From NCBI RefSeq assembly GCF_009914755.1, contig NC_060937.1: a stretch of DNA of 64,000 nucleotides; one strand, 5' to 3'. The DNA is from the human T2T-CHM13v2.0 reference genome, Homo sapiens. A program made the translations under genes and the position numbers. The notes under the pieces are model-generated. The model saw only the letters and a list, made by a program, of their open reading frames with translations, made no database searches and was not told where the DNA came from. This document shows positions 721-57,303 of this stretch, one piece after another (position 1 is the stretch's first letter; the number at the start of each line of letters is the position of its first letter).

Positions 721-751
721 TTTTTCCATGGAACATTGAAACAGGTCATTT

Positions 752-1890
752 TATATATATATATATATATTATATATATAATATATATATAATATATATA
801 AAATGTACATATTATATATAATATATAAAATGTACATATTATATATAATATATGAAATGTATATATTATATAATATATAAAATGTATATATTACATAATA
901 TATAAAATGTATATATTATATAATATATAAAATGTATATATTATATAAAATATATAATATATAAAAAATAAACAATATATATAAAATATATATATTATAT
1001 AAAAATATATGTTATATATAATATATAAAAATATATAATATATATTATATAAAATATATTGTAGATTATATAAAATATGTAATATATAATATATTATATA
1101 AAATATATAATATATAATATATTATATAAAATATATTATATATAATATATTTTATATATTATATAAAAAATATATATTATATATTATATATAATATAAAA
1201 TATATTATATACTATATAAAATATATTATATATTATATAAAATATATTATATACTATATAAAATATATTATATATATTATATATTATATAAAATATATTA
1301 TATATTATATAAAATATATTATATATTATATAAAATATATTATATATTATATAAAATATATTATATATTATATAAAATATATTATATATTATATAAAATA
1401 TATTATATATATTATATATTATATAAAATATATTATATATTATATAAAATATATTATATATTATATATTATATAAAATATTTTATATAATATATAAAATA
1501 TATTATATAAAATATATTATATATTATATAAAATATATTATATATTATATATTATATAAAATATATTATATATTATATATTATATAAAATATATTATATA
1601 TTATATAAAATAGATTATTATATATTATATAAAATAGATTATATATTATATAAAATAGATTATATATTATATATTATATAATATATATTCTATATTATAT
1701 ATTATATAATATAGATTATATATTATATATTATATAATATAGATTATATAATATATAATATATAATACAGATTATATATTATATATTATATAATACATAT
1801 TATATATTATATATTATATAATATAGATTCTATATTATATATTATATAATATATATTATATATAATATAATATATAATATACATTTTATA
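752..1890. repeat. ~1.1 kb AT-rich low-complexity/minisatellite (units such as tatattatataaaata)
   Basis: Directly visible; almost exclusively A/T with nested 7-18 bp periodicities. Confidence 0.97.
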
Positions 1891-2714
1891 TTTTGATGAA
1901 GGATTAAAATATCAAAGGGAAGATATAGCGAAGAAAATCATAAAGTCACAGGAGCCCATGTAACCCTAAACAGTTGAATTATCTCAGCTTCATTATCAGC
2001 CAGTTCAAAGGGAAATATTATAGTTACTAGATTTACTAAATCTAAATAAAAAGCAAACTAAATATTTATTCTCTTTAGATCCTAAACAATTTCTTGCAGG
2101 GAACCTGGCTTTGTAATATTTTGGATATTTCGGAGGAAGTTTTGGACTTCATCCCTACCCTAGAATCAACAACAGGTTGCACATAGATGTGGTTTAAAAA
2201 TCTTCTTCTATAAAGCTGAGACATAATGCCAAGGCATAATACAATAAAGCGAGCGTTTAAGAGTCCAAAACAATACAGCTCTACCATGCAACTATGTGAT
2301 GGTCTGGCTTGTTTGCAAGTGAAGATCTGAACATCTAAAGAAATATATTTACTGCAAATTATTAAAAAATATCTTCCTATACTTATTGTTTCTCACAACC
2401 AAGTTATTCATGGGATCAGATAATAAAGGCTTCTCTGTTTCAGTATTTGGCCCACAACCTAAAATGTAGACAGCAAGTGGTGTTAATAATTAAGGCATAG
2501 ATGCATAGATCTTGACAATAGCCAAGATGTTGTCCTCTTAAAAAAAAGTAGAAACTTAACCAAGATAGTCTCTATGGAATCTGCTTCTGAATATCCCTCA
2601 GGCATTTCAAACTCATCTTGTCCAAAACTCAGTTCACCATCACTTCCCTTGAACTTTCACATCCTCCTGTTACCTCAAGACGCAGACTGAAAGGAAACAC
2701 TTTCAGCACAGACA

Positions 2715-28410: not shown

Positions 28411-29067
28411 TCACTTGATCTACATGACTGCACCTACAGAGCTTTTTATCTCAGAAATATTATGGAAGAGGCCTATAACATCCAATGTGTGTGATGCAAA
28501 TGTGGTCTTACAGATCTATGAAAGAATTGGGAAGACGTAAGGAGAGAAAAGCAAACAGAACTATCATGTGTTCCTATAAATCACTCTGAGAAGCTTCTTT
28601 TCAGGTTTCAGAAGAGGAACAAAGAACATAGATACTCATCTATTATTCCCCTCTCTGAGAAGATAAAACATCGGATGAAAGAGAGAGAGAAAGAACAACT
28701 GACCTTACATTAGCCCCATTGATTGCTGACAAATAGATTACAAAGCATGGGAATTTATTCAACTCTATGTATGCCTGAGGCTTGACTGAATAGCCACCCA
28801 AAGGTATGATGTTGGTGGCTGCCAAGCCCTGGTCACAAGAGTCAGGGCAAGTCAGAAACCATGGCAGTGGCCAAAAAGAATCCTGTGTAGTGTCATGGTG
28901 TCAGTGCATTTCTGGGCTGGAGACTGGTTAGGGCCTCAAATTGTTTCTACAGTTTCTTAGAAAGTCAATGGCCTACCTTGGTCAAAAACTTCATCCTCTT
29001 TCATTCCACCCATTCCCACCCCCTTTTTTTTTTTTTAGGGTCTTTTCAGGTTCTCAAGACCAATAGT

Positions 29068-29424
29068 CAGAGATAGGTTCACTATGAAGCTAATGAAGAT
29101 TAAGATTTGGAACCCCTCAGGTGCATAAGCCCTGTAGTACAGAGAATAACTAACACTTTTAAAGAATTCTAAATGAGGAGGGAAAGACAGTTTAGAAGAG
29201 GGAAGTATTCCTAAGAAAGCATTTCTGGCAAAATGGCCAAAAAGAGCTTGAAAAGAAGAGATATGAATTTCTGAGCTTCCAGTAATTTGTTACAATATCT
29301 TTACTCATTCCAAATAAATATTTATATTCATATCTAATTTGTAATTTTGTATTATTTTTCTTAAAGATGATCCCTCCCACAAAGTAGGTAGGCTTCAGGC
29401 TCCGCAAAACCTGAAACTGCCCCT
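29068..29424. mobile_element. hAT-Tip100-type DNA transposon (MER69/Arthur-like)
   Basis: tgaagctaatgaagattaag..cccctca..; cttcaggctccgcaaaacctgaaactgcccct. Confidence 0.55.
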
Positions 29425-31699
29425 AAAATAGTGTTAACACGAAAAAAGAATGAATGACTTCACTCATTTGACAACATTTGCCAAATACCAACTCATGCTC
29501 ACAGAGCACAGTGAATGTTGTTGAAGAGAAGAATGCCCAGCACTGGGGCCACACAGGCGAGCAAGGTAGATGTGGTCCTTGTGTTTGAGAACTTGTAGGA
29601 CTGTCAGGACATCAGTGAGCTCATGGTAGATTCACATTCCCTATAATTCACGTTCACTATAATGAGGTAAATTCCTCAGTTCAGCTCTTACAGCTTAGGA
29701 AAGAGCCAGTTGACCATCCATCCAATCTCTTTTGATCCTGTGACTCACAGAAGATGTGGACATGGATCTCCACAGTGATCCTTGACCAAGCCAAAAATCA
29801 TAGTTGACTGCCCTCCCCAAACCCCAAACCCAAAACAGTATTTGTGCCCACTCAACTCACCAGTCTACAAAAAAATGGGACAGACTGGATCAGGTTCATA
29901 AGACACGGGGGTCATCCAAGCCACTGGCCACCTTGGGAGGACCACCCACCAGTCAAGCTGGAAGAAGTGCCAGTTATTAGCTACAGCAGAGCTCATCCAC
30001 CCATTTAAACAATAAATAAATAAAGCATCTATTCCTGGGCTTCACTACAAAACTCAAAGGTTTTGTAGAGTTAGGGTTTAACAGGTTGGGGGAGGATAAA
30101 AATGAAATTGTTTCAAAATCACAAAAACAGCAAGGCCAGCAAGGTACATTGAGTTCTTTAGTACTACTAAAACCGGGGAGGGGGGGGCGCGGCTGCTAAC
30201 TTAAATAGCAAGGCCAAGATCAGCATATTGATTCATTAAATCATTCAGCAAATATTTATTGAGTGCCTAGCATGTGTTAGAGCACACATCTATGAAAAAA
30301 ACAGGATCGCTGTCCTCTTGATGCTGACACTCTAGCAGAAGGAGATAGACAACCAGTGACAGCTGAGAGATCAGGGAGATGGCATGTGCAGGATACAGAA
30401 GATCTGGAGTGTTGGGGCAAAGAGAGGTATGTGTTTCCTGAGAATAGGCATTTCTTTGGCTTTGCCCTGATATGCATCAGAAGGGCTGCAGCAAGGGCAG
30501 GGACTGGTGTTTTCAAACAGAAGCAGGTAACCCCACAACAAGAAAGGGTCGCTCAAACACAACACACATTGACACGATCACTCAGCAGGAGGTACACAAT
30601 AAACAAGTATTTTTGAAATGTAATTTTTCCAGCCAGAGAAAAGATTTCATTGATCATCATTTAAAATAGATTTTCATTTCACATCATCTAACTAACTTAA
30701 AAGGCAACGACCATAAATTCCATTTAATAGGTGGTTCCACTGGGGAGGACTGGTGGGGCAATTGTCAATTAGGTATTGCATAAAAGGATGCAAATATCTC
30801 ATAAAAGTGATGGGAGATTATATTATTGCATTAACCATGTCGTTCTTGCCATGCTGTTACACACCATAGAATAATAACTAACACATTTACAAGGTGGAAA
30901 TCATTCCGAATGTGCTTTTAAACTGTGTGCAAATGCAAATTGTCTTGAATCAGTTCTTAGCACCTTTGGTCAGCCACTTTCTAATCTTCTATTTGCAGGG
31001 GAAAATAATTAATGGGTGAAGTATCTGATAGCATAGGTTATGGGCTCCAGCAAGACATTTTCCAATATGTGTTGTTTTACAGCTGTGCCTTTGAAAGCTA
31101 GGCTGTCAAATCTATAAAAATATAAAAGTGATTAATCCCAACCATAAAAACTTCTAATGATGCCATGCTTCAGCCTCCAATTTTTTCCCAGCTTCTAAGG
31201 TAAAGAATTTCAAAATGCCAACAGAATAATTTGGCAGGAGGGCAGGCTAGTATAATATGAAGTAGATGTGGAAGAGTAGAAAACAGAGAGAGCCTAGGCT
31301 TGTTTACACGGAGGGGGTCAGTCTCAAAAAGAAGAAAACAGGATGGGATGTACCCAATAATTCACTCGAAACAGTAAACAGCCAAGAAGTCAGAAGCAAT
31401 ACTGATGACATCAGATTTTAATGTTCATTTATGAGTTATGAATAAGGGAATTGGTTAATACAACTTAGCTTGTGCCCCCCTCCCCCACTCAGAAAAAAAA
31501 AAAAAACCTTGGTTGTCTGGAGCTCCTAGTTGAGATGCAGTTGCAGAAGGTACGCTCAAACTCAAGTCAAAAGAAATAGCTTTGTTGGGAGGGGAAGCAG
31601 AGTCACATTACATATCAAGAAGAAATATAACTCTATGGATATTCTCAAACTTGAGGGAGAGGCATTCAGGAAAGTATGTTAAAGAAAAGATAGTATAGG

Positions 31700-33210
31700 G
31701 ATCTAGCAGTGACAAAAATCACTGTTTTTCTGGATGGAGATAGTAAACAAGTAGGCAAAACGTAGTAGTATAACAGATAAGTGCTATGGAGAAAAATAAA
31801 ACAGGGAATGGGAAAAGGGAGTACTATTAAAATGGGGGTGGGGGGGTTGCTAACTTAAATTGGGTTGCTGGTGGAACCTCACCGAGAAGGCAGCATTTGA
31901 GCAGAGACCGGAATAAGTGATCCATGCCAATATCAGAGGAAAGAGCCAAAAATCATAGTTGACTGCCATCCCCGAACCCAAAACAGTATTTGTGCTCACT
32001 CACCTCACCAGTCTACAAAAAAATGGGACAGACTGGATCAGGTTCATAAGACATGGGAGCCATCCAAGCCACTGGCCACCTTGGGAGGACCACCCATCAA
32101 TATGATGTTGGTGGCTGCCAAGCCCCGATCACAGGAGTCAGGGCAAGTCAGAAACCATAGCAGTGGCCAGAAAGAATCCTATGTAGCATCATGGTGTCAG
32201 TGCATTTCTGGGCTGGAGCCTAGTTTTGTCTTGTCAGGTTCTCAAGACCAATAGTCAGAGGTAGGTTTACTGTAAAGCTAATGAAAATTAAGATTTGGAA
32301 TCTCTCAGGTGCATAAGCCCTGTAAGCAACAACAGCAGGTGCAAAAGCATGAGGTGAGAAAATGCCTGGCACTTTGGGCATCCAGCAAAGAAGCTGGTAT
32401 GGCTGGAACAGGATGGGAGTAGGTGAGATGGCAGGAGGTGCACCTAGAGAGGTAATGGGGACAGTCAGGAAGGGGCTTGTAGGCTATGGTAAGGACTCTG
32501 GCCATTGGCAGATTCTGAGCAGCCAGCAGAATTATGGCTGTGTTGAGAACAGGCTGAAGAGGGCAAGAGTGGATGTAGGGCAGCTGATGTAACAATTCCA
32601 GGTGTGGCATGGCAATGGCAATGTCCAGGGGGTAACAGTGGAGATGATGAGAAGTGGCTGGATTCTGAATATGTTTATGAGGTAGAGCCAACAGGATTTG
32701 CTGATGAATTGGCAATGGGAGTTGAAAGAGAAATAAAGAGTAACTCTGAAATTTTTGACTTGAGCACTGAAAAGAATTGAATTGCTATAAATGGGGTGGG
32801 GAAGATCTCAGGTATAGCAGGTTTGGAGACAAAAGTAGCAAGAGTTTGGTTTTGACTAAAACATTTTGCATGTTTACTATACAGAGAAGTGAAGATTTTA
32901 TTTAGGTAGTTAGATACACAAATCTTGAACTGAGAGAAGAGGTCAGGCTGGAGATACAAATTGAGAAGTTGTGAGCACATACACAGTTGTTAAAGCTATC
33001 AGACTGGATGAGATAATATAGACAATGGTATGGAGAGAGAAGAGAAGAGGTCCAAGGTTTCAGCCTTACGTGCTTCAACATTTAGCAGTCAGGGCTGAGG
33101 GTGAAGAAGCAGTGGAAGCCCAGAAGGAGTGAACAATGAGGCAGAAGGAAAACTAGATGAATATGGTGTCCTAGAAGGCTCATAAAGAAAGTGCATCAAG
33201 GAGAAGAACA
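31700..33210 (-). mobile_element. L2a LINE interrupted by a non-L2 insert at 31944-32324
   Basis: aagtgctatggagaaaaataaa..gcatttgagcagagac..ccatgccaatatcagaggaaagagc [insert] aacagcaggtgcaaaag..gagaagtggctggattctgaatatg. Confidence 0.85.
31944..32324 (+). repeat. Composite local duplication: copies of 29789-29948, ~28794-28933 and 29035-29136
   Basis: Aligned by eye, ~92-95% identity per segment. Confidence 0.93.
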
Positions 33211-33364
33211 GGAGTCCAAAGCATTGTTGAAGTCATGGAAATAGAGGAAATGAGTTGCAAATAGGTGGTAATTTAAGAATGGGATTCCTGAAGTTGGGAA
33301 GATGGAGGGAGTGGCAGGCAGAATTCTAAGGAAGGAATACACATGGAAATGGATTGCTTAAAAC

Positions 33365-33459
33365 TCTTCATGGTCTTGTACCTCATTAAAAAAAAAGGTC
33401 TTGTACCCCATTTAAAAAAAAAGGTCTTCATGGTCTTGTACCCCATTAAAAAAATGGTC
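33365..33459. repeat. Imperfect triple tandem repeat of ggtcttgtacc(t/c)catt(A)n
   Basis: Directly visible. Confidence 0.9.
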
Positions 33460-34709: not shown

Positions 34710-36300
34710 TCTAAAAGTTTGGGTATCTAATTGTAGGGAAATGTCTTATGAGTGCTAGGCAGCTTTAAGAATCTGTTTGAATTAGTACTCACAGGTTTAA
34801 AGGATGATCAGTCAGTGTAGGAGTATGCTTTTCTCTAGCCACTTTTATCTACATGGATACAGGGATGAGAAAAAAGTAGAGTCAGATTTAACCATTTTGG
34901 AGTTTTGTCAGGCAAATTAAACAAACGGAGAGAAGAAAAGAGAGCTAATGGTATATTTAAATGAGTGATTATGGTGATTGATCATATGCTGATAAAGGAG
35001 GGCAGTAGAGAGAGGATGGGGATGAGGGACATAAAAATGTGGGAGATTGTGAGTTCAAAGTATCATTGAAGTCATGGAGACAGAGGAAGTGAGCTAGAGA
35101 TAGTAGGTGGTAGTTTAAGAATAGAACTCTTCAAGTTAAGAACATTGAGGGTGTGGTAGGCAGAATTCTAAAATGACCCCCCCTTCTCTCATGACTCAGC
35201 CCTTGGATAGTCTTCTCTGTTTGAGTGTGGGAGGAACCTATGAAGATATGAATATTGCATAGGTGATTGGGTGATGTTACATAGCACAGCTGACTTTAAG
35301 TAAAGAAAGTTAGCCTCAGATAGTCTGACCTAATCAGACATGTAGAACTGACCAATAAGAACTGACCTAACCAGGTGAGTCCTTACAAGGGACAGAGCTC
35401 TCCCTGATAAAAGACATTCAAAACATGAGAAGCACCCTATAGAAAAGAGAATCTCCGTTGTTGCCTATGAAGATTTAGGGGGTCACGTGTCAAGGAATGT
35501 GGGTGGCATCTAGGAGCAGAGAATGGCCCAGACTGACAGCCAGCAAGGCAATGGGGACCTCAGTTCACAACGTCAAGTAACGGAAGTCTGCCACAACCAT
35601 GTGAGGGCCATTTGAGAATGCAGACTGGTGAGACACTGAGCCGAGAATCCCAGCAGTGCGCCCAGATGTCTAACCTACACAACCTTGAGCTAATCAATGG
35701 GTCTTGTTTTAAGCCACTCACTTGTGCTTATTTCCTTTCCAATCCTTTGTGGTAATGTCAAGTTTTAAGATATATGAGCAAAGGATTGAGAGTATAAGGT
35801 TGGGTAAAAGACGATAAACTTGAGGAACTAAAATGCATTGGGATATCTACTTGAATTTACCTGTAATTATAAAAGGACTATGGTGAGGAGAGGGTCAGTG
35901 AACCAGGAGTTAAAATCTTCAGAAAATGAAAGAGAATGACCTAGGGGAAGGGGTCTATGGATGACAGAAACTAGGAGAGATGGGTGTGGAATATGCTGAT
36001 GGTATAAATTACATAGCTGGGGTGAGGGAGCAAAGAGGACAGATAGGAATGGTTTAGAACAGTAATGTGGAGCAAGAAGGACAGCACCCCACCTCTAGGC
36101 GCAGTGGTAGGAGGGCTGTCAGAAAGAAAACAACACCCACTTGAAAAAACTGCTGGAAAAATATTGACTTCAGCAGAGAGTCAAATTTCAGGTAGAGGAA
36201 GAAGGTGGAGAGAATTAGAAGTGGTGGAAATATGGGAGGTCTTTCTAATAACTGACCCAGAACTCTGGAAATCACAGTAGAAAATGTAGAAGGTGTTGAG
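34710..36300 (-). mobile_element. L2 body interrupted by an MLT1 LTR
   Basis: Purine-rich L2 ORF2 antisense-like sequence (gaaccaggagttaaaatcttca, gtttagaacagtaatgtggagcaagaagga). Confidence 0.55.
35152..35730 (+). mobile_element. MaLR LTR (MLT1E/F-like)
   Basis: tgtggtaggcagaattctaaaatgacccc..tctaggagcagagaatggccca..gacagccagcaagg..gttttaagccact. Confidence 0.85.
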
Positions 36301-48387: not shown

Positions 48388-49239
48388 GTATATAATCAAA
48401 CCATTACACTTCCTTAAGCGCCAATTTTCACACCAAAAAGCAGTGTCAAAAGGCACGTGATTATAACTAAATCAAAATAAGGAGAAGTGCACAGATGCCT
48501 GAATATATAACGAACTGGACTGGTTAGCATCTCTAGCTTCATTGGAAATTTAGCCCTTTCTGCCTGTAAAAGATAACCTGGGGTAAGTCAGAGCACCAGG
48601 GGGCCTTGTTTGCTTTGCAGCTGGAAATCAAAAGCTTGGAATAATAGAGTAGCTGCACCGAGGGGTGAGCTTCCTCTCATCATCACACCACCCATCTCAC
48701 TTCAAAGCCTCATTTATTGGGCGGTAAGCCTTTGAAGCCTTTTGATCCAAAACTGAAGCATCTCCCAGCAAGTCCCTGATTTTCATGTGCTCAAAAGTAC
48801 AACACATTAGCATGTATTCGGCACTGGGAGGACAGTGATCTTTTGGGTTTGCAAACTTCTGTGGCTGGTAGTTGTAGTGTGTTTTTCATGTTGTCATTGT
48901 CATTGTTTAATCCAGTATTTTGGGAAACCACTAAAAAGGGCACCAAGTGCAATGAGATTCTTTTCCCACTGTTCTGCATTTCCTGGGATCTTCACTCTAA
49001 CAATAAAACAGGAATGCTGGGATAAGACAACAATGAGTATAACTGTAAAAGATAAGTTGTCTGTATACCTTGGTTTTTTTTTAAATCAAGAATGATAACC
49101 ACAATTATTTGGGGATGCAGGTATATGTTAAAGACTACTGAGAAAAACATAACGCAGACAAGACAGACTCAGTGGCGCAACAGACACAATGACAGTAGGA
49201 GAACACAGTCCATTGAATAGTATTAAAACCTGGAATTTT

Positions 49240-49265
49240 GATAGATAGATAGATAGATAGATAGG

Positions 49266-49318
<53 letters not shown>
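49240..49318. repeat. (GATA)6 GGTA (GATA)12 STR
   Basis: Counted directly. Confidence 0.97.
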
Positions 49319-49455
49319 GAAGGAAGGAAGGAAGGAGAAGGGAAGGGAAGGGAAGAGGGAGGGAGGGAAGGAAGGAGAGAGGGAGAAAGAGAAAAAGGAG
49401 AAAAGGGGAAAATAGAAGAAATAAACAAAACAGCAAGAAAGAAAGGCAAAAAAGA
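49319..49455. repeat. GA-rich polypurine tract (GGAA/GGGA)
   Basis: Directly visible. Confidence 0.9.
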
Positions 49456-50172
49456 ATCTGAACTTGTACTTTGTTTTGAAAAGAAGATAGAAACAAATAG
49501 CAAATGCAGTTATTTGGTCTTAGAAAACTCAACCTTAAAAATCCGAAAACGAATATGATTTGTTCCCCTATTTCCATTCCCTTCTGGCCTGAGTAATACA
49601 ACCTGGACACAAGGGGATTGTGAATTACTGAGATAGTCTTCTTTAACATCTTCCCTTAACAATCTGACTACCCTGAGGATGGCTGTAAGTGCAGAAAAGA
49701 GGTGACCATTTTTTTAAAACTCAGTGTGGTTCATATTGACTTACCACAACAAAGACAAACACTACAACAAGAAAAATTATTATTTTAACTCCCATTCAAA
49801 TTTCCTTTTAGCTTACATTGAGACTACAATTTGTATTAAAATTACTACTGAATGAAAATATTGGTACATCCAGGTGAGTGGTTATTTCTAAAGTAAGATC
49901 TCTGATATTTAGTTATACATGACATTGCAAGTGCATTATTCACCGATTGTTCTAATGAGTATAAGAAAAGAAGAAATGTGATAATTAATAAACTTAACTG
50001 CAGAATTTCAGCTAAGATCATAAGACCAGAAATACGAACTTGCTACCATCAGTCTTTCTTGTCAGGAGCATTACATTCTGTTTAGTTTTTCATGCACCAG
50101 AGTTGTTATGTTAATAACTGTATGATGGTGGAGTGGAAAGAACACAAACTCAGTGTCAGAAAGACCAACGGG

Positions 50173-50501
<329 letters not shown>

Positions 50502-50940
50502 CTATCTGTGACCATGGATCAATTATTTAACCTCCTGTGCCTCAGTATCCTCATTTGAAAAATGGAAATGCTAACATCATACCACAAAGGATAATTGTAT
50601 TTAATGAAGTGACATACAATGTATAGGATACCTGGCACACAGAAGGTACTCAAATCAATGACAGCTGTGTTTCCTGCCCATGATGGACAACAGGACTCAT
50701 CTGCCCTAGAAAGATCTGGTTTATCAAGAGGGCTGTTTGTGGCAATTCTGGAGTTGTGCAATGCATTATCTGCATGTCCTTAAGCGGTAGCCCTCTGCTT
50801 TAATCAGTTCTTCAACAGAGGCAATGCACTCTTTTTTCAGACTATTGGCCAGGGTTAGAAATGCTAGTATTGCAACTAAGCTAATGAATAGGGACACAAA
50901 GGGAGTCAGATATGGGTCTCGTTAACACCATACTATAAGC

Positions 50941-51147
50941 CAGGGGTCAGAAAACAGCCCTCTAGCCAAAATTATTTTTGTAAATAAAGTTTTATTGGAA
51001 CACAGTCACATTGATTCATTTACATAGTGTCTATGGCTTCTTTCACACTACAACAGCAGATTTGACTAGTTGTGGCAGAGACCATATGGCCCACAAGCCT
51101 AAAATACTTACTATCTGTCTCTTTGCAGAAAAAGTTTGCTGAGCTTC
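50941..51147. mobile_element. MER58A (hAT-Charlie)
   Basis: caggggtcag..tttttgtaaataaagttttattggaacacag..gagaccatatggcccacaagcctaaaata..agaaaaagtttgc. Confidence 0.9.
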
Positions 51148-51219
51148 TCTCTAAGAACCCAAACTACAACTATATTCATAGATTCAGTTCATCAGTGGGT
51201 CACATTTTACAGCCTATCA

Positions 51220-52020
51220 TTATAGTAAGCTTGGTGTTGTTTACAAATAAAATGGACAGCAGCCCCTGACAAGAGGTTCATGGTCTTATAAGAAGACTTG
51301 AGGACATGAAAGCAAGCAAGGACTTGTATTAAATTATAAAGTACCCAATTATATAATGGAGGCTACAAATGATACAAGAATCCCAGGATGGGAGAATTCA
51401 AGATATGCTGGAGTCTCAAGAGAATCCTTTCCAGAAGAACTGGGAGAGGAAGCAAACTTTTCAGGAGGATACATGCAACATATATGGAAAGGAAGCAAAG
51501 GTTTCCAGGCAAGAGAGGAGGCAGAGGAAAGCCACAAAAGCAAGAAAAAGTATGATGACCAGCAAATAAATGAGCCCTAATACAGGACGTCAGGAGAGGC
51601 TGTACAGGCAGGGGGAGGAGAGTGGTAAAAATGAGGGTGTACAATCTGACTGGGGGAAACTGGAAAGATCTGGGTCTAGAGAGATTGGACTTGACTCTAG
51701 GCAGGAGAGAGCCATGATCGCTCCCTGTGCAGTACATCCACAGTGTGATTAAAGTCATTTGGGAAGAAAAGAGATTAGAGATAAGAACCCCAATCAGAGT
51801 TTTTTGCATTAATTCAAGTGTAATATGATGACATGATTATTTGAGTAGAAGTAGGGGAAAGAGACAGATCTGAGAGACTTAGTAAGCCAAAACTTGGTGA
51901 CTGGTCTATATGACATGTAATGGACTGGAAAAAGTCTCAAGGATGATTCCAGAATTTCCTGATGGGAAGCCTGGTAGCATGGTGGTACCATCAACAGAAA
52001 GGGGAGCCAATTAAGAAGAA
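51220..52020 (-). mobile_element. L2
   Basis: aagtctcaaggatgattccagaatttc..tggtggtaccatcaacagaaagggg. Confidence 0.6.
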
Positions 52021-52049
52021 AATATCTATACTCCCCTTTTTGGCCCCTC

Positions 52050-52225
52050 CTTTTTATTGTGGTACAAGATATATAACATAAACTTTACCATCTTAGCCAT
52101 TTTTAAGTGTGCAGTTCAGTAGCGTTAAGTATATTCACATTGTTGTGAAACCGATCCCCAGAACTTTTTCATCTTGCAAATCTGAAACTCTATTAACAAC
52201 AACCCTCCCTTTCTCCCTCACCTCA
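52050..52225 (-). mobile_element. L1MA/MB 3' end
   Basis: tttttattgtggta..aacataaactttaccatcttagccatttttaagtgtgcagttcagtagcgttaagtatattcacattgttgtg. Confidence 0.85.
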
Positions 52226-52999
52226 GCATTTATGCTCCTTTTAAATAGACTCAATATTGCAGAATTTCAAGTAATCAGAAATGATGAGTTTGGACCTCGA
52301 ATCTTATATTTATGAGATTTGCAGGCTGAAGCACATCACATGCTACATTCATTCATTCATTCAACAAATGTTAATTGAGTACCTGCTAGTAGATGATAAT
52401 TGGGGTATGCTCTGGAGATAATAAGATGAATAGCATATGACTCCTGCTTTTAAGGCAGACAATAATAAATTTGGTAAAGAAGTTCCCACTAGTAGTGGAG
52501 ACAGAATTGAAAAAAATAATCCCAGCTAGGTGGTATAAAGACTAAATCAGAAATGGGTTCAAGGCACAGTGGTCAAACAACCAATGATCATCAAACAATC
52601 CTAACTTAACTGGTGTCAGATGATGTTGTAATTATAAATGGTAAGAATGCAGGAGAAGAGAGTAAATTTCTTAATATTGGAAGTATGGAAACAAGAGATC
52701 TCCTAAGCAAGGAGAATATTACTAGGGTCAGAATGAATAATAGGTAAAAATATTTAAAACTGACATAAAAAAGACAAGTAACATTTGAGAAAACGCAACC
52801 CATATCTCAAAGATCATAAAATTGTTTACCTTTGTATATTCATTTAACATTTAATTCTTTCCCAATTTAAAGTTAGTGACTTTCCTCCTAATGCTACAAA
52901 TTGTTAATTACAGGGAGCAAATTCACTTTAGAATAATTAGCTTTAGACAATTTGGGTGAAGTACACTTTTTTCCATAGAATAGGGATATTTAGACAGCA

Positions 53000-54205
53000 T
53001 TTCATCACCGTACAACCCGTTACAGCTCATCTAGTTCCCTAGAAAGCATGTAGAAGGTGTTTTGGAAATTTGTTTGTGTAGGTATTTTTCTATGTTTCAT
53101 TGATGCAAGGGGCTCTACTACCCTTTAATGTGGGAGGGCCGGAAATGCTAGCCATCCTGCAATGTGCAGGGTAGCCCCACACCACAGAGAATTGTGCTAC
53201 CTCCAGCATGACTTTCTAACATGCTACACATTCGTGTAGGTGAAAAACCTCTTTGTGATTAACTTAGCCTACAGCCTAACTTCATTCTATATATAAATGC
53301 ACTTTTTTGCACTATTTTAGTAAATACTGAATTTTCTAGGAATGCAAGTACACTGAAAATCCAAAGACAATTGTGATGTCTTGCTTGAAACTTTACCAAT
53401 AGTTGTCTACCATTTTGGACATTCATTTAGAAAACTGCGTTACCAGCAGCATTGCCTCTCGTGGTATATGAGAATAACCAATACGAAAACGTCTTTAACA
53501 GTCTGCACTTTCAGCTGTTTGTTCCAAGTTATTCCATTTTAATTTACAAATATTTTTATGTCACCCTTATTCCAAATGACAAATTTAAAGAAAAAGTATA
53601 AACATAGCTTAGTCTTACTGCTCTGAAAACCAAAGTTATTCATTATAAGCATGTGCAAGTATCTGACCACTTTATTATGAGAAGTGGAGGTAACAGTGAG
53701 CTGAGATCACGCCACAGCACTCCAGCCTGGGTGACAGAGCAAGATCCTGTCTCAAAAAGAAAAAAAAGACCAACCAATCCAGGATCCCCCATGTCCTATC
53801 TGTGACCATGGATCAATTATTTAACCTCCTGTGCCTCATTGTTTACGGAATGAGTGACGAGTATTGAAGGTGACTCTTAAAGAGCCCGGCTCATAGAAGG
53901 AGCTCAGTAAAACAATCTTTACCAATTTCTCAATATTGAAAGTACGGAAACAAGAGATCTCCTAAGCAAGGAGAATATTACTAGGGTCAGAATGAATAAT
54001 AGGTAAAAATATTTAAAATTGACATAAAAAACACAAGTAACATTTGAGAAAACACAGTACCTTTGTATAGGCACGCCTTTACCTATGGAATACAGGCAAT
54101 TTTATTATAAATTACTTTCCATTTATTTCTTACTGATTTACAGATTTATATTATATTGATTTTGAAATTTTATGTTTGTTAAATTAGTTATGAATTTCAT
54201 TTCAC
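53000..54205. mobile_element. MER20B-like hAT-Charlie element interrupted by a non-native insert at 53678-~54069
   Basis: catcctgcaatgtgcagggtagcccc..gaattg..tgtaggtgaaaaacct..ctgaattttctaggaatgcaa..atctgaccactttattatg [insert] .. Confidence 0.7.
53678..54069. repeat. Composite local duplication: copy of 50381-50544 (+), inverted copy of 54281-54360, copy of 52665-52797 (+), possibly 52827-52838
   Basis: Aligned by eye, ~90-95% identity per segment. Confidence 0.93.
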
Positions 54206-54339
54206 ATGAAAAACTTGAGGCCTGGAGAGGTGATAGGTCTTACCCAAGTTAGCTAGCTATTTAGTGGAAAAATCAGAGAGAAGATTGTTTTACTGAGCTC
54301 GTCCCATGAGCCGGGCTCTTTAGGAGACACCTTCAATAC

Positions 54340-55280
54340 TCGTCACTCATTCTGTAAACATGTACTGCATGTTCACCAGCGCCTGGCTTGTGCTAGGGCC
54401 TGATCTTGCCGAGCTGCACAGTTCTTGCCCTCAAGTGAAGGCAGACCAGAAAAAAATCAACTCTCATAAATGCATAAGTACATGAAGTGGTGGTGTTACA
54501 GAGAGGAGGAATCCAACTAAGCCTGTAGGGTTCAAGATCCTCTTCCAAGAGGAACTGACACTCAAGCTTCAATGGCAGGTAGGAATAAATGAGGTGAACA
54601 GGGAGTAGAAAATATTTCAAGCCGAGAGAACAGATAATCTTGGAGGAAAGTCCAGGAGACCATGGCACTCCTACAGAACACGAAGTACTTCAGTTGGTGT
54701 CAGCTGAGGGTAAGAACACAGAAGTGGTGGCAAATGGAGCTGGACAGAAGGGAAGCACACAGCTCATGGAGAGCCTGTTCTCCCTGGTCAAAGAAATTAA
54801 ATGTTCCCTTGAAGTTCACAAAGGAAATGGTGAGGATTTTTAATAGATGTGTGACACCAGGTAATTCACTCTGGTGGCAGTATAAATTTTTAAATGGAAC
54901 ATTTTGCAATAACCCAGACAAGAAGTGAACTGGATTAAGGGAGTGGCCTTGGGTGGGGAGGATGAAATAGACAGCAATGATATAGGGGAAGCAGAATTCA
55001 CAGAATTTGGTGACTGATGGAATTTTCCAGGTTGAGGGAGAGGGGAGACTTGAGAGTGACTTGCTACTGGCTTGGACAATGTGAATAATAAAACCCTTCA
55101 CTACCGTGAACATGGAGGAGGAAGTGGGTAGTTTGGAGGGTGAGGGAGAGAAAGAGTGAGTGTGGACTGGGATATGCTGGGTACATGCATGGATGGGCAT
55201 CCCGGTGGAGACACAGATCTGAACTCAGGAGGCATTTCTGGACTAGAGGGATTAGGGATGCTTATCTAAGAAGTATCAGC
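54340..55280 (-). mobile_element. L2 (followed by MIR, -, ~55285-55430)
   Basis: cactcattctgtaaacatgtactg..ttcttgccctcaag..agaatttggtgactgatgg..tctgaactcaggag. Confidence 0.7.
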
Positions 55281-57303
55281 ATAGACCGTCCCTCATTTAA
55301 TCCCCACAACTGCCTTATGAAGCAGTTGTTATAGCCTTATTTGATAGACAAGAAAGCCAAAGCTTGCCCAGTCACAGTGTTGGAGAGCTAGGATTTTCTC
55401 CTTGGTCTGTCTGAGTCCAAAGCCTACACTGACCCCATGGGCCCTCCACATCAGGAGTTTTATGATTTGCAGTGAAGCATCTTCCATTATCGCAACCTGT
55501 TCTCCATAATGGTTGCATGGAGAAGTACATCTTTCCAGAAATCACTATAAATGACTTCCAGGTTTCCCAAGAAATCTGGGAATACCTGATTGTCAGAAAC
55601 AGAGCAGTACCTTGATATATGTGATAGCAAGACAATGGGAAGCCTCTGTTACTGCATTCTTGGAGTTCACATTACTAAGTTACAGCTCTAGACAAAAAGT
55701 GGGCAAAGGAGGGTCCCCCAGCTCTCCTTAAGGACCCCAGCATCCAGGAAAATGCCCTCGTTGTTTTACACAAAGAACAACCACCACCCTCAGCTAATGG
55801 GTAAAATCCACTTCAGATAATAAACTGCTGCATTTATTTGATATCTTATTAGATTTGCTTCAAAGACACTAAATCAAAGAGTGGCATTACTGTTCATCTC
55901 CTGAATTTCACATCAGGGAAAGAAGGGGGGGTGGGTAGGTGGATAACTGTACAGAGGACTTACTTGAAAGTCACAGATGGGCTTAATGAGAACAAAGAAA
56001 TAAGCAGCCAGCAGGCCCCTGCCCTCCTGTGTCTGCACACGGCTCTCCCCGGCCAGGTGCTGACTCTTTCTGCAGCCCTAACACCAAGGAGGTTCAAGAC
56101 TGATGGCAACACAAGGTCCAAATATCTATCATGTGCCAAAGTGAAGGAGTTTACATGTGATTAAAAACACTTTCACATTACCATAAGACAGCAATATGAA
56201 CTGTGACCTAAAGCCTCAGCATACTCTGCCCCCATCATACCCCAGCCCACCCATGCCCTATGTTCTTAAAGAGCTCATGAAAAATTCCCCACCTGGCTCC
56301 ACTCATTCCAGGCTTAAACCATCCATAAGCTTCCTGGAAGCCGCAAGACTTGAAACACACCCTTGACCCTCAGCAGACTCATGACACTGGCCAGAGCTGC
56401 AGGGAGAAGCCCTCACTGAGAGCTCTGTGCTGACTCCCAGATGGCCAGTCCTTCCAGGACTGACCAGATGGTTCAGACAGCAAGGTCTCTCTGTCTGGAC
56501 ATACTAGTCATTTGATGAAAGTCAAAATATGTGATGGCTGCAGTCATTACCCAAGGCTTCTGTCATCATCGCATTCCCAGATTCTTTGGATTTGGCTGGG
56601 CAAACAGACTGGACAAGGCTCGGCTGCTGCTTTTGCTATTCACAGACACCACTTAAACTGAGTGATCCCCTTTCAAAACCTGCTCCCATGATCCAAATTC
56701 TTCTGGAAGATGAGATTTCTGGTTAAGCAAAAGTCAGCTGTGCACGGATGGTTTGAAAATTCTTCCCTCCCCTCATCTTCATGTACACCCATCATTGCCA
56801 CGTCATTGCCCCTCCCAGACCCTTCCTTATAGCAGTGATTATCTATCCCACCAGGCCACCCTCCTGGGCTGGAAGATAGAAGCATGACCCATGACATGAC
56901 TGAAGGTGCAGGGTCTTCAGTCTGGGCAGTTTAAACCATGATTTAACAGGATGTAGACAAAGAACCCTGCAGCTGGGGACTCAAGTTTCTTGCTCCAACT
57001 AAACCCAGAATCTGCCCTTTCCTAGTAAAGTAAACTGTAACCTGAATTTCTCAACTACAAAATTAGGACAATACTAGTCACTCTCTCTGTCCTGCTAACC
57101 TCTCATGCATAATGTGAGGATAAAATGAAAGTAGAGATGTGATTATGGTTTAACAAAGCGACTATGGTTTAACAAAGCCAAAAATATAATATACAGTATT
57201 ATTACCAAGAGCAGATCACGTCCTCTGCACCATGTATCCCACCTAAGCAGGATTAATGTTTTTAACACTCAGTTTTTCCCACTCAAATATCAGATCCTTG
57301 GTT

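What the first reader, a model, noticed from the sequence alone, without database searches (positions are those of the whole stretch)
53678..54069. Second patchwork insertion: upstream Alu-tail/MIR junction, inverted downstream piece, and another upstream piece
Seen: inside a MER20B-like element, 53678-53838 copies 50381-50544 (Alu 3' end, A-tail and the locus-specific flank beyond it). 53840-53919 is the reverse complement of 54281-54360, with a ca(t) junction. After a 4-nt tacc linker, 53924-54056 copies 52665-52797 (~95%), and tacctttgtata matches 52827-52838. Donors lie on both sides of the insert and on both strands. Inference: multi-switch templated repair postdating the AluS insertion.
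Basis: partly seen in the sequence, partly recalled or inferred. Interest (0 to 1): 0.75.

Follow-up and report, generated by a model that had tools for sequence, protein, structure and literature searches.

The report
Three-donor DNA repair patch fossil
A 390-base insertion on human chromosome 13 is stitched from three nearby pieces of DNA, one of them flipped; it is likely the old scar of a germline chromosome break patched by copying, a known kind of event with more donors than the catalogue we read describes and no sign of function.

Summary
53678-54069 interrupts an old interspersed repeat and consists of copies of 50381-50544 (+), 54281-54360 (inverted) and 52665-52797 (+), ending in a 12-mer that matches 52827-52838. 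Copies differ from donors at 25 of 374 sites (6.7%), evenly across pieces. The non-Alu part matched only these donors in the genome search. Paralogues show the host continues across the insert with 0-7 bases lost, and that 5 or all 12 bases of the last piece may be host DNA acting as microhomology. There is no terminal poly(A) or target-site duplication. It works like the repair-mediated duplications of Pace et al. 2009 (824 human cases, median 147 bp), whose text describes at most two donors; no chr13 row of their table lies near this locus by my recalled coordinate. A second three-donor patch of equal divergence (24 of 371) lies 21 kb upstream; these two account for all 6 local duplicates of 80 bases or more in 104 kb. 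Likely template-switching repair in an ancestral primate germline. Orthologues and reads could not be checked.

The parts
53155..53679 (+). Left part of the interrupted host repeat (DNA-transposon fossil; MER20B by recall, untested)
   Evidence: 24 non-self matches at 68-83% identity in the genome search; paralogue alignments reach 53677-53679
53678..53838 (+). Piece a: copy of 50381-50544 (Alu 3' end, A-tail, target-site duplication, flank); first 2 nt shared with host
   Evidence: 13 substitutions in 161 aligned sites
53840..53919 (-). Piece b: inverted copy of 54281-54360, after one extra T at 53839
   Evidence: 6 substitutions in 80
53920..53923 (.). 4-nt filler; possibly copied from 53391-53400 with 3-nt overlaps on each side
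   Evidence: 10-mer match spanning the filler; reached by 3-4% of 144 alternative fillers within 300-500 nt, 9% within 1 kb, 18% within 3.5 kb: weak
53924..54056 (+). Piece c: copy of 52665-52797
   Evidence: 6 substitutions in 133
54058..54069 (+). Piece d: exact match to 52827-52838, 29 nt further along donor c; last 5 nt (possibly all 12) are host DNA serving as junction homology
54065..54204 (+). Right part of the interrupted host repeat
   Evidence: 8 non-self matches; collinear with the left part in the same paralogues, e.g. L015, L016, L018, L021
50381..50544 (+). Donor a, 3.1-3.3 kb upstream; 3' end of the Alu that starts near 50173, and its flank
52665..52838 (+). Donor c/d, 0.84-1.0 kb upstream; 52798-52826 is absent from the copy
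54281..54360 (+). Donor b, 0.2-0.3 kb downstream, copied from the opposite strand
31944..32324 (+). Companion three-donor patch (donors 29789-29951, 28805-28922, 29040-29136) inside another old repeat (L2 by recall)
   Evidence: 24 substitutions in 371 sites; host continuous in 9 paralogues with about 9-11 nt lost

Best explanation
The insert is a patchwork of three local DNA copies inside an old repeat, likely made in one germline break-repair event in a primate ancestor when a broken end copied short tracts from nearby templates and switched between them. Shown: the pieces, their donors on both sides and strands, a continuous host with 0-7 nt lost, equal divergence of the pieces, junctions with 2-nt and 5-12-nt homology or 1-4-nt fillers, and a 29-nt skip along one donor. 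Inferred: a double-strand break at about 53679; one end primed on donor a through 2 nt and switched to the opposite strand of donor b; piece c/d came either from a further switch or from the other broken end annealing at 52827-52838 and copying leftwards; the ends were then joined (synthesis-dependent annealing or polymerase-theta-type joining; the enzyme cannot be told from sequence). Inferred age: after the donor Alu inserted, probably before apes and Old World monkeys split. It is most likely a neutral scar.
For: Matches far above chance. Non-Alu part matches only the three local donors, 3 of 3 candidates scored. Host collinear in paralogues, 5 of 6 with 20 nt across the site. Divergence homogeneous, 13/161, 6/80, 6/133, chi-square p=0.45; 18 transitions, 7 transversions. 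Copy keeps the Alu's original target-site duplication while the donor has two later changes. Piece sizes 80-164 nt and distances 0.2-3.3 kb fit the 824 proximal repair duplications (median 147 bp, within 5 kb; PMC2671141). The companion patch shows the same pattern: a host-like 9-nt match next to a donor, then an 85-nt skip through a 5-nt microhomology. 6.7% divergence fits the human-to-rhesus class (mean 5.9%, median 5.8%, the 79 rows of part 9 of 15 of Table S1).
Against: Inner junctions have little homology (0-2 nt plus fillers), which also fits plain ligation. The 29-nt skip could be a later deletion in the copy. The filler template is only weakly supported (p 0.03-0.18 by radius). The empty site rests on 6 of 18 paralogues that also scored against the left flank, not on orthologues, and the host is poorly conserved just right of the junction (44-54% of cells at 54070-54098). 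The confidence interval on divergence (4.4-9.7%) spans several age classes, and the paper's own rate of 2.2e-9 would give only about 15 million years.
Confidence: 0.7

Rival explanations
1. Free fragments (cut from the sister chromatid or homologue, for example by paired meiotic breaks, or released as replication flaps) were ligated into the break by end joining, with no strand invasion.
For: Inner junctions have 0-2 nt homology with short fillers. In ATM-null mouse testis 27 of 243 deletions held inserts, 15-349 bp from other hotspots with median 1-nt microhomology, and local inverted inserts of 16-709 bp (10.1101/2020.06.23.168138, passages). In yeast flap-nuclease and RPA mutants 5-7% of insertions have two or more fragments (PMC11724301, passages).
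Against: The 5-12-nt homology at the right end and the short skips along a donor in both patches (29 and 85 nt) point to primer-template re-annealing. All donors are local; in the mouse data only 2 of 27 events had two inserts.
Confidence: 0.2
2. Three independent single-donor duplications landed at the same spot at different times.
For: Piece c is less diverged (4.5%) than a and b (8.1%, 7.5%).
Against: The difference is not significant (p=0.45); no host DNA lies between the pieces; the companion patch has the same three-piece form.
Confidence: 0.05
3. An L1-driven retrocopy, such as an Alu 3' transduction or a spliced local transcript, with reverse-transcriptase template switches.
For: The insert begins with a 5'-truncated Alu end, A-tail and its 3' flank.
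Against: Pieces come from both strands and out of order; no poly(A) at either end; longest repeat shared by the flanks is 5 nt and out of register; read in insert orientation, 0 of 4 donors has AG before it and 1 of 4 has GT after it; no other copy found. In PMC2671141, 0 of 39 proximal cases had poly(A) tails.
Confidence: 0.04
4. Assembly artefact.
For: Reads were not available.
Against: Copies differ from donors at 6.7% of sites, mostly transitions, 6 at CpG contexts, and the copy keeps an older state of the Alu target-site duplication than the donor.
Confidence: 0.01

Closest known systems
Repair-mediated duplications (Pace, Sen, Batzer, Feschotte 2009, PMC2671141; main text parts 1-6 of 8 read, plus all 82 chr13 places, the MER20 rows and part 9 of 15 of Table S1)
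   Same: Insert interrupts an old repeat; donors within 5 kb and intact; pieces near 150 bp; microhomology, filler, small or no deletion; no poly(A) or target-site duplication; divergence near 6%.
   Different: Their text describes 20 chimeric cases, all of two donors, only 5 with both local, and their model allows one template per broken end. Here three donors are used, on both strands, and the largest covers 41% of the insert, below their 80% query-coverage filter.
Tandem short template (TST) jumps (10.1101/835058; passages)
   Same: Chains of short insertions in tandem, median 183-199 bp, drawn from small breakpoint clusters, ascribed to template switching.
   Different: Those are somatic, tied to chromosome bridges and chromothripsis, and link hotspots megabases apart; this one is local, copy-only, in the reference genome and old.
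FoSTeS/MMBIR templated insertions at germline breakpoints (PMC3638133; passages)
   Same: Template switching through microhomology; small templated insertions found at 2.2% of germline breakpoints.
   Different: There the insertions sit at junctions of larger variants; here the host is continuous and no larger rearrangement is evident.
Insertion of SPO11 double-cut fragments (10.1101/2020.06.23.168138; passages)
   Same: Germline, similar sizes, local inverted inserts.
   Different: Inserts sit in kilobase deletions between hotspots, mostly singly, mostly without ATM.

Membership tests
Repair-mediated duplication (Pace 2009) | Insertion of 50 bp or more interrupting an older repeat, halves collinear within 30 bp | tested here: met
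   Paralogues continuous across the site, 0-7 nt lost; family name recalled only
Repair-mediated duplication (Pace 2009) | Donor within 5 kb and more than 50 bp away, still present | tested here: met
   0.2-3.3 kb
Repair-mediated duplication (Pace 2009) | [quoted passage not shown] | tested here: met
   Met for 53760-54075, each piece one donor (the search skips very common words); the 76-nt Alu part is multicopy but its best match is the local donor
Repair-mediated duplication (Pace 2009) | Microhomology, filler or small deletion; no poly(A) tail or target-site duplication | tested here: met
Repair-mediated duplication (Pace 2009) | One donor covering 80% of the query, or at most two donors (one per end) | tested here: not met
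   Three donors; largest piece 161 of 392 nt. So it works like the class but falls outside its operational definition
Repair-mediated duplication (Pace 2009) | Empty orthologous site in an outgroup primate | not testable with these tools
   No relatives held for this genome
TST jumps | Tandem chain of roughly 100-300-bp insertions | tested here: met
   161, 80, 133(+12) nt
TST jumps | Donors from several distant hotspots, with chromothripsis | tested here: not met
   All donors within 3.3 kb; neither patch uses donors from the other's neighbourhood
L1-mediated transduction or retrocopy | 3' poly(A), target-site duplication, single-strand collinear source | tested here: not met

The most novel reading that the evidence does not exclude
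The two three-donor patches 21 kb apart are one event: two breaks in the same ancestral germ cell, both repaired by short-template jumping and inherited together, a fossil germline counterpart of cancer TST-jump chains and the tip of a class of multi-donor patches that coverage filters have hidden from catalogues.
Probability: 0.3. Interest if true: 0.55.

Novelty: new variant of a known kind. Interest (0 to 1): 0.3.

Why it matters
The locus itself has no sign of function: no annotated gene or element covers it and Rfam found 0 matches in 49000-56000. Its value is as a record of germline repair. Three local donors exceed the one-template-per-end model used for fixed repair duplications, so at least one end must have switched template or fragments were chained. 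Two such patches of equal size and divergence within 22 kb mean either one clustered event or that multi-donor patches are commoner than listed: by chance a pair this close is expected 0.07 times if 100 exist genome-wide, 0.6 times if 300, 4.8 times if 824. Either answer is testable with existing primate assemblies.

Tried and rejected
Genome-wide or megabase-scale background count: not done; only 104 kb around the window and 30 other loci of about 3 kb (93.8 kb) were scanned, too little for a rate. In those 30 loci the 6 local pairs were 5 Alu-Alu pairs and one 66-nt inverted pair in L033, not followed. Inversion between the two patches: rejected, both hosts are continuous. Distant composite source: none found. 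Structured RNA: none. Filler template at 54077-54083 (7-mer): 6-17% of alternative fillers do as well, not used. A recalled paper on template distances at 1000 Genomes deletion breakpoints was not held and is not relied on. Searches for prior description: (listings and abstract starts only, except the papers named as read); none of the listings names this locus, but most subscription journals are not searched and only one supplement was opened. PMC7615360 (passages) supports template switching for short germline insertions but gives nothing on patches of this size.

Full report
Observation. Repeat finding, self-BLAST and exact-match mapping confirm each match. Piece a (53678-53838) copies 50381-50544 with 13 substitutions in 161 sites; piece b (53840-53919) is the reverse complement of 54281-54360 with 6 in 80; piece c (53924-54056) copies 52665-52797 with 6 in 133; 54058-54069 equals 52827-52838. 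Scores of 118-223 bits compare with a maximum of 31 bits for 100 random sequences of the same length and composition. The substitutions are 18 transitions and 7 transversions, so these are aged copies and not an assembly echo.

Direction and empty site. The flanks belong to one interspersed repeat: the left flank has 24 non-self matches, the right 8, and several paralogues match both flanks in order about 40-50 bases apart. Of 18 paralogues with a right-flank anchor, 6 also scored against the left flank and were aligned. The host runs to 53679, so the first two bases of piece a are shared with it. Five of the six paralogues have 20 bases where the window has 54058-54077; agreement is 13 of 42 cells for 54058-54064 and 22 of 30 for 54065-54069. 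Either 7 host bases were replaced and 5 bases are junction homology, or the whole 12-mer is diverged host DNA that paired with 52827-52838 and led the right end to donor c. I favour the first, but cannot exclude the second. The family names MER20B, AluS, MIR and L2 are recalled.

Junctions. Host to a: 2-nt overlap. a to b: CA overlap plus one extra T. b to c: 4-nt filler; a 10-mer at 53391-53400 spans it with 3 bases on each side, but 3-18% of alternative fillers do as well depending on radius. c to d: 29 donor bases skipped, one base in their place. d to host: 5-12-nt overlap. There is no terminal poly(A), no target-site duplication and no set of splice signals. The non-Alu part matches only its three local donors in the genome search.

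Timing. The copy includes the Alu's tail, target-site duplication and flank. At 53765-53774 it is identical to the Alu's 5' duplication (50160-50169), whereas the donor's own 3' duplication has two changes. Against 37 other Alus, the 76-nt Alu part has 6 changes shared by donor and copy, 3 donor-only and 6 copy-only: the copy was made well after the Alu inserted; the sample is small. Overall divergence is 6.7% (95% interval 4.4-9.7%), homogeneous among pieces (p=0.45). The 79 rows in part 9 of Table S1 of PMC2671141, all of the class shared by human to rhesus, average 5.9%, which suggests an origin before the ape-Old World monkey split; a simple clock at that paper's rate would give about 15 million years, so the date is loose.

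Known class. PMC2671141 found 824 human insertions inside old repeats copied from within 5 kb, median 147 bp, with microhomology, filler and small deletions and no poly(A) in 39 of 39 inspected, and ascribed them to synthesis-dependent strand annealing. Twenty were chimeras of two donors, five with both local. Their filter needed a hit covering 80% of the query, which this insert would fail, and 11 of those 79 rows carry unexplained fillers of 40 bases or more. All 82 chr13 places in their table were read; none lies between hg18 36.8 and 41.1 Mb, and I place this locus near 39.7 Mb from recalled offsets, not from a tool. I did not read the whole table for three-donor rows. Chains of short templated insertions are known from broken chromosome bridges and tumours, yeast mutants and germline breakpoints, and capture of cut fragments from mouse meiosis; these were seen as passages only.

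Companion. 31944-32324 is a second three-donor patch, 381 nt, 24 substitutions in 371 sites (6.5%; p=1.0 against this one), 21,354 nt away, in a host that nine paralogues show to be continuous apart from about 9-11 bases. Its left flank matches 29697-29708, of which 9 bases are host-like (7 of 9 majority matches), followed by an 85-nt skip through a 5-nt overlap. In 104 kb, all 6 local pairs of 80 nt or more at 84% or better belong to these two patches; the seventh pair listed is a 47-nt Alu-internal match. Against a single episode: about 6% divergence is typical of the whole class, close pairs occur in the 2009 table (for example two chr11 rows 38 kb apart), neither patch borrows from the other's neighbourhood, the window was chosen because of the patches, and the genome-wide rate is unknown.

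Verdict. A real, old, probably neutral multi-template repair scar: a variant of a described class, with three donors where the catalogue's text describes two. Copying by template switching 0.7, ligation of free fragments 0.2. Interest 0.3; 0.55 if the two patches prove to be one event or part of a large hidden class.

Noticed in passing
window 31944-32324: Second three-donor patch of the same size and divergence; donors 29789-29951, 28805-28922, 29040-29136; 7-nt shared word at its first inner junction and an unexplained filler of about 9 nt at the second.
   Followed up: partly
window 33212-33329 and 35051-35171: A 121-nt local pair at 78.5% identity, 1.7 kb apart; may be an older single-donor repair copy (it seems to cross a repeat boundary, by recall) or two repeat paralogues.
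   Followed up: partly
window 33365-33454: Short rearranged tandem copies of a 30-nt word with A-runs, just right of the pair above.
   Followed up: no
window 30160-30206 and 31820-31860: Marginal 47-nt match (77%, 37 bits) between the companion's left flank and a site 1.6 kb upstream.
   Followed up: no
window 748-1897: Long self-complementary simple repeat, about 1.1 kb, matching itself on both strands.
   Followed up: no
window 49236-49320: GATA tetranucleotide array followed by purine-rich repeats, about 0.9 kb upstream of the donor Alu.
   Followed up: no
L033 2367-2432 and 2832-2896: 66-nt inverted pair at 85%, 400 nt apart; possibly transposon ends.
   Followed up: no
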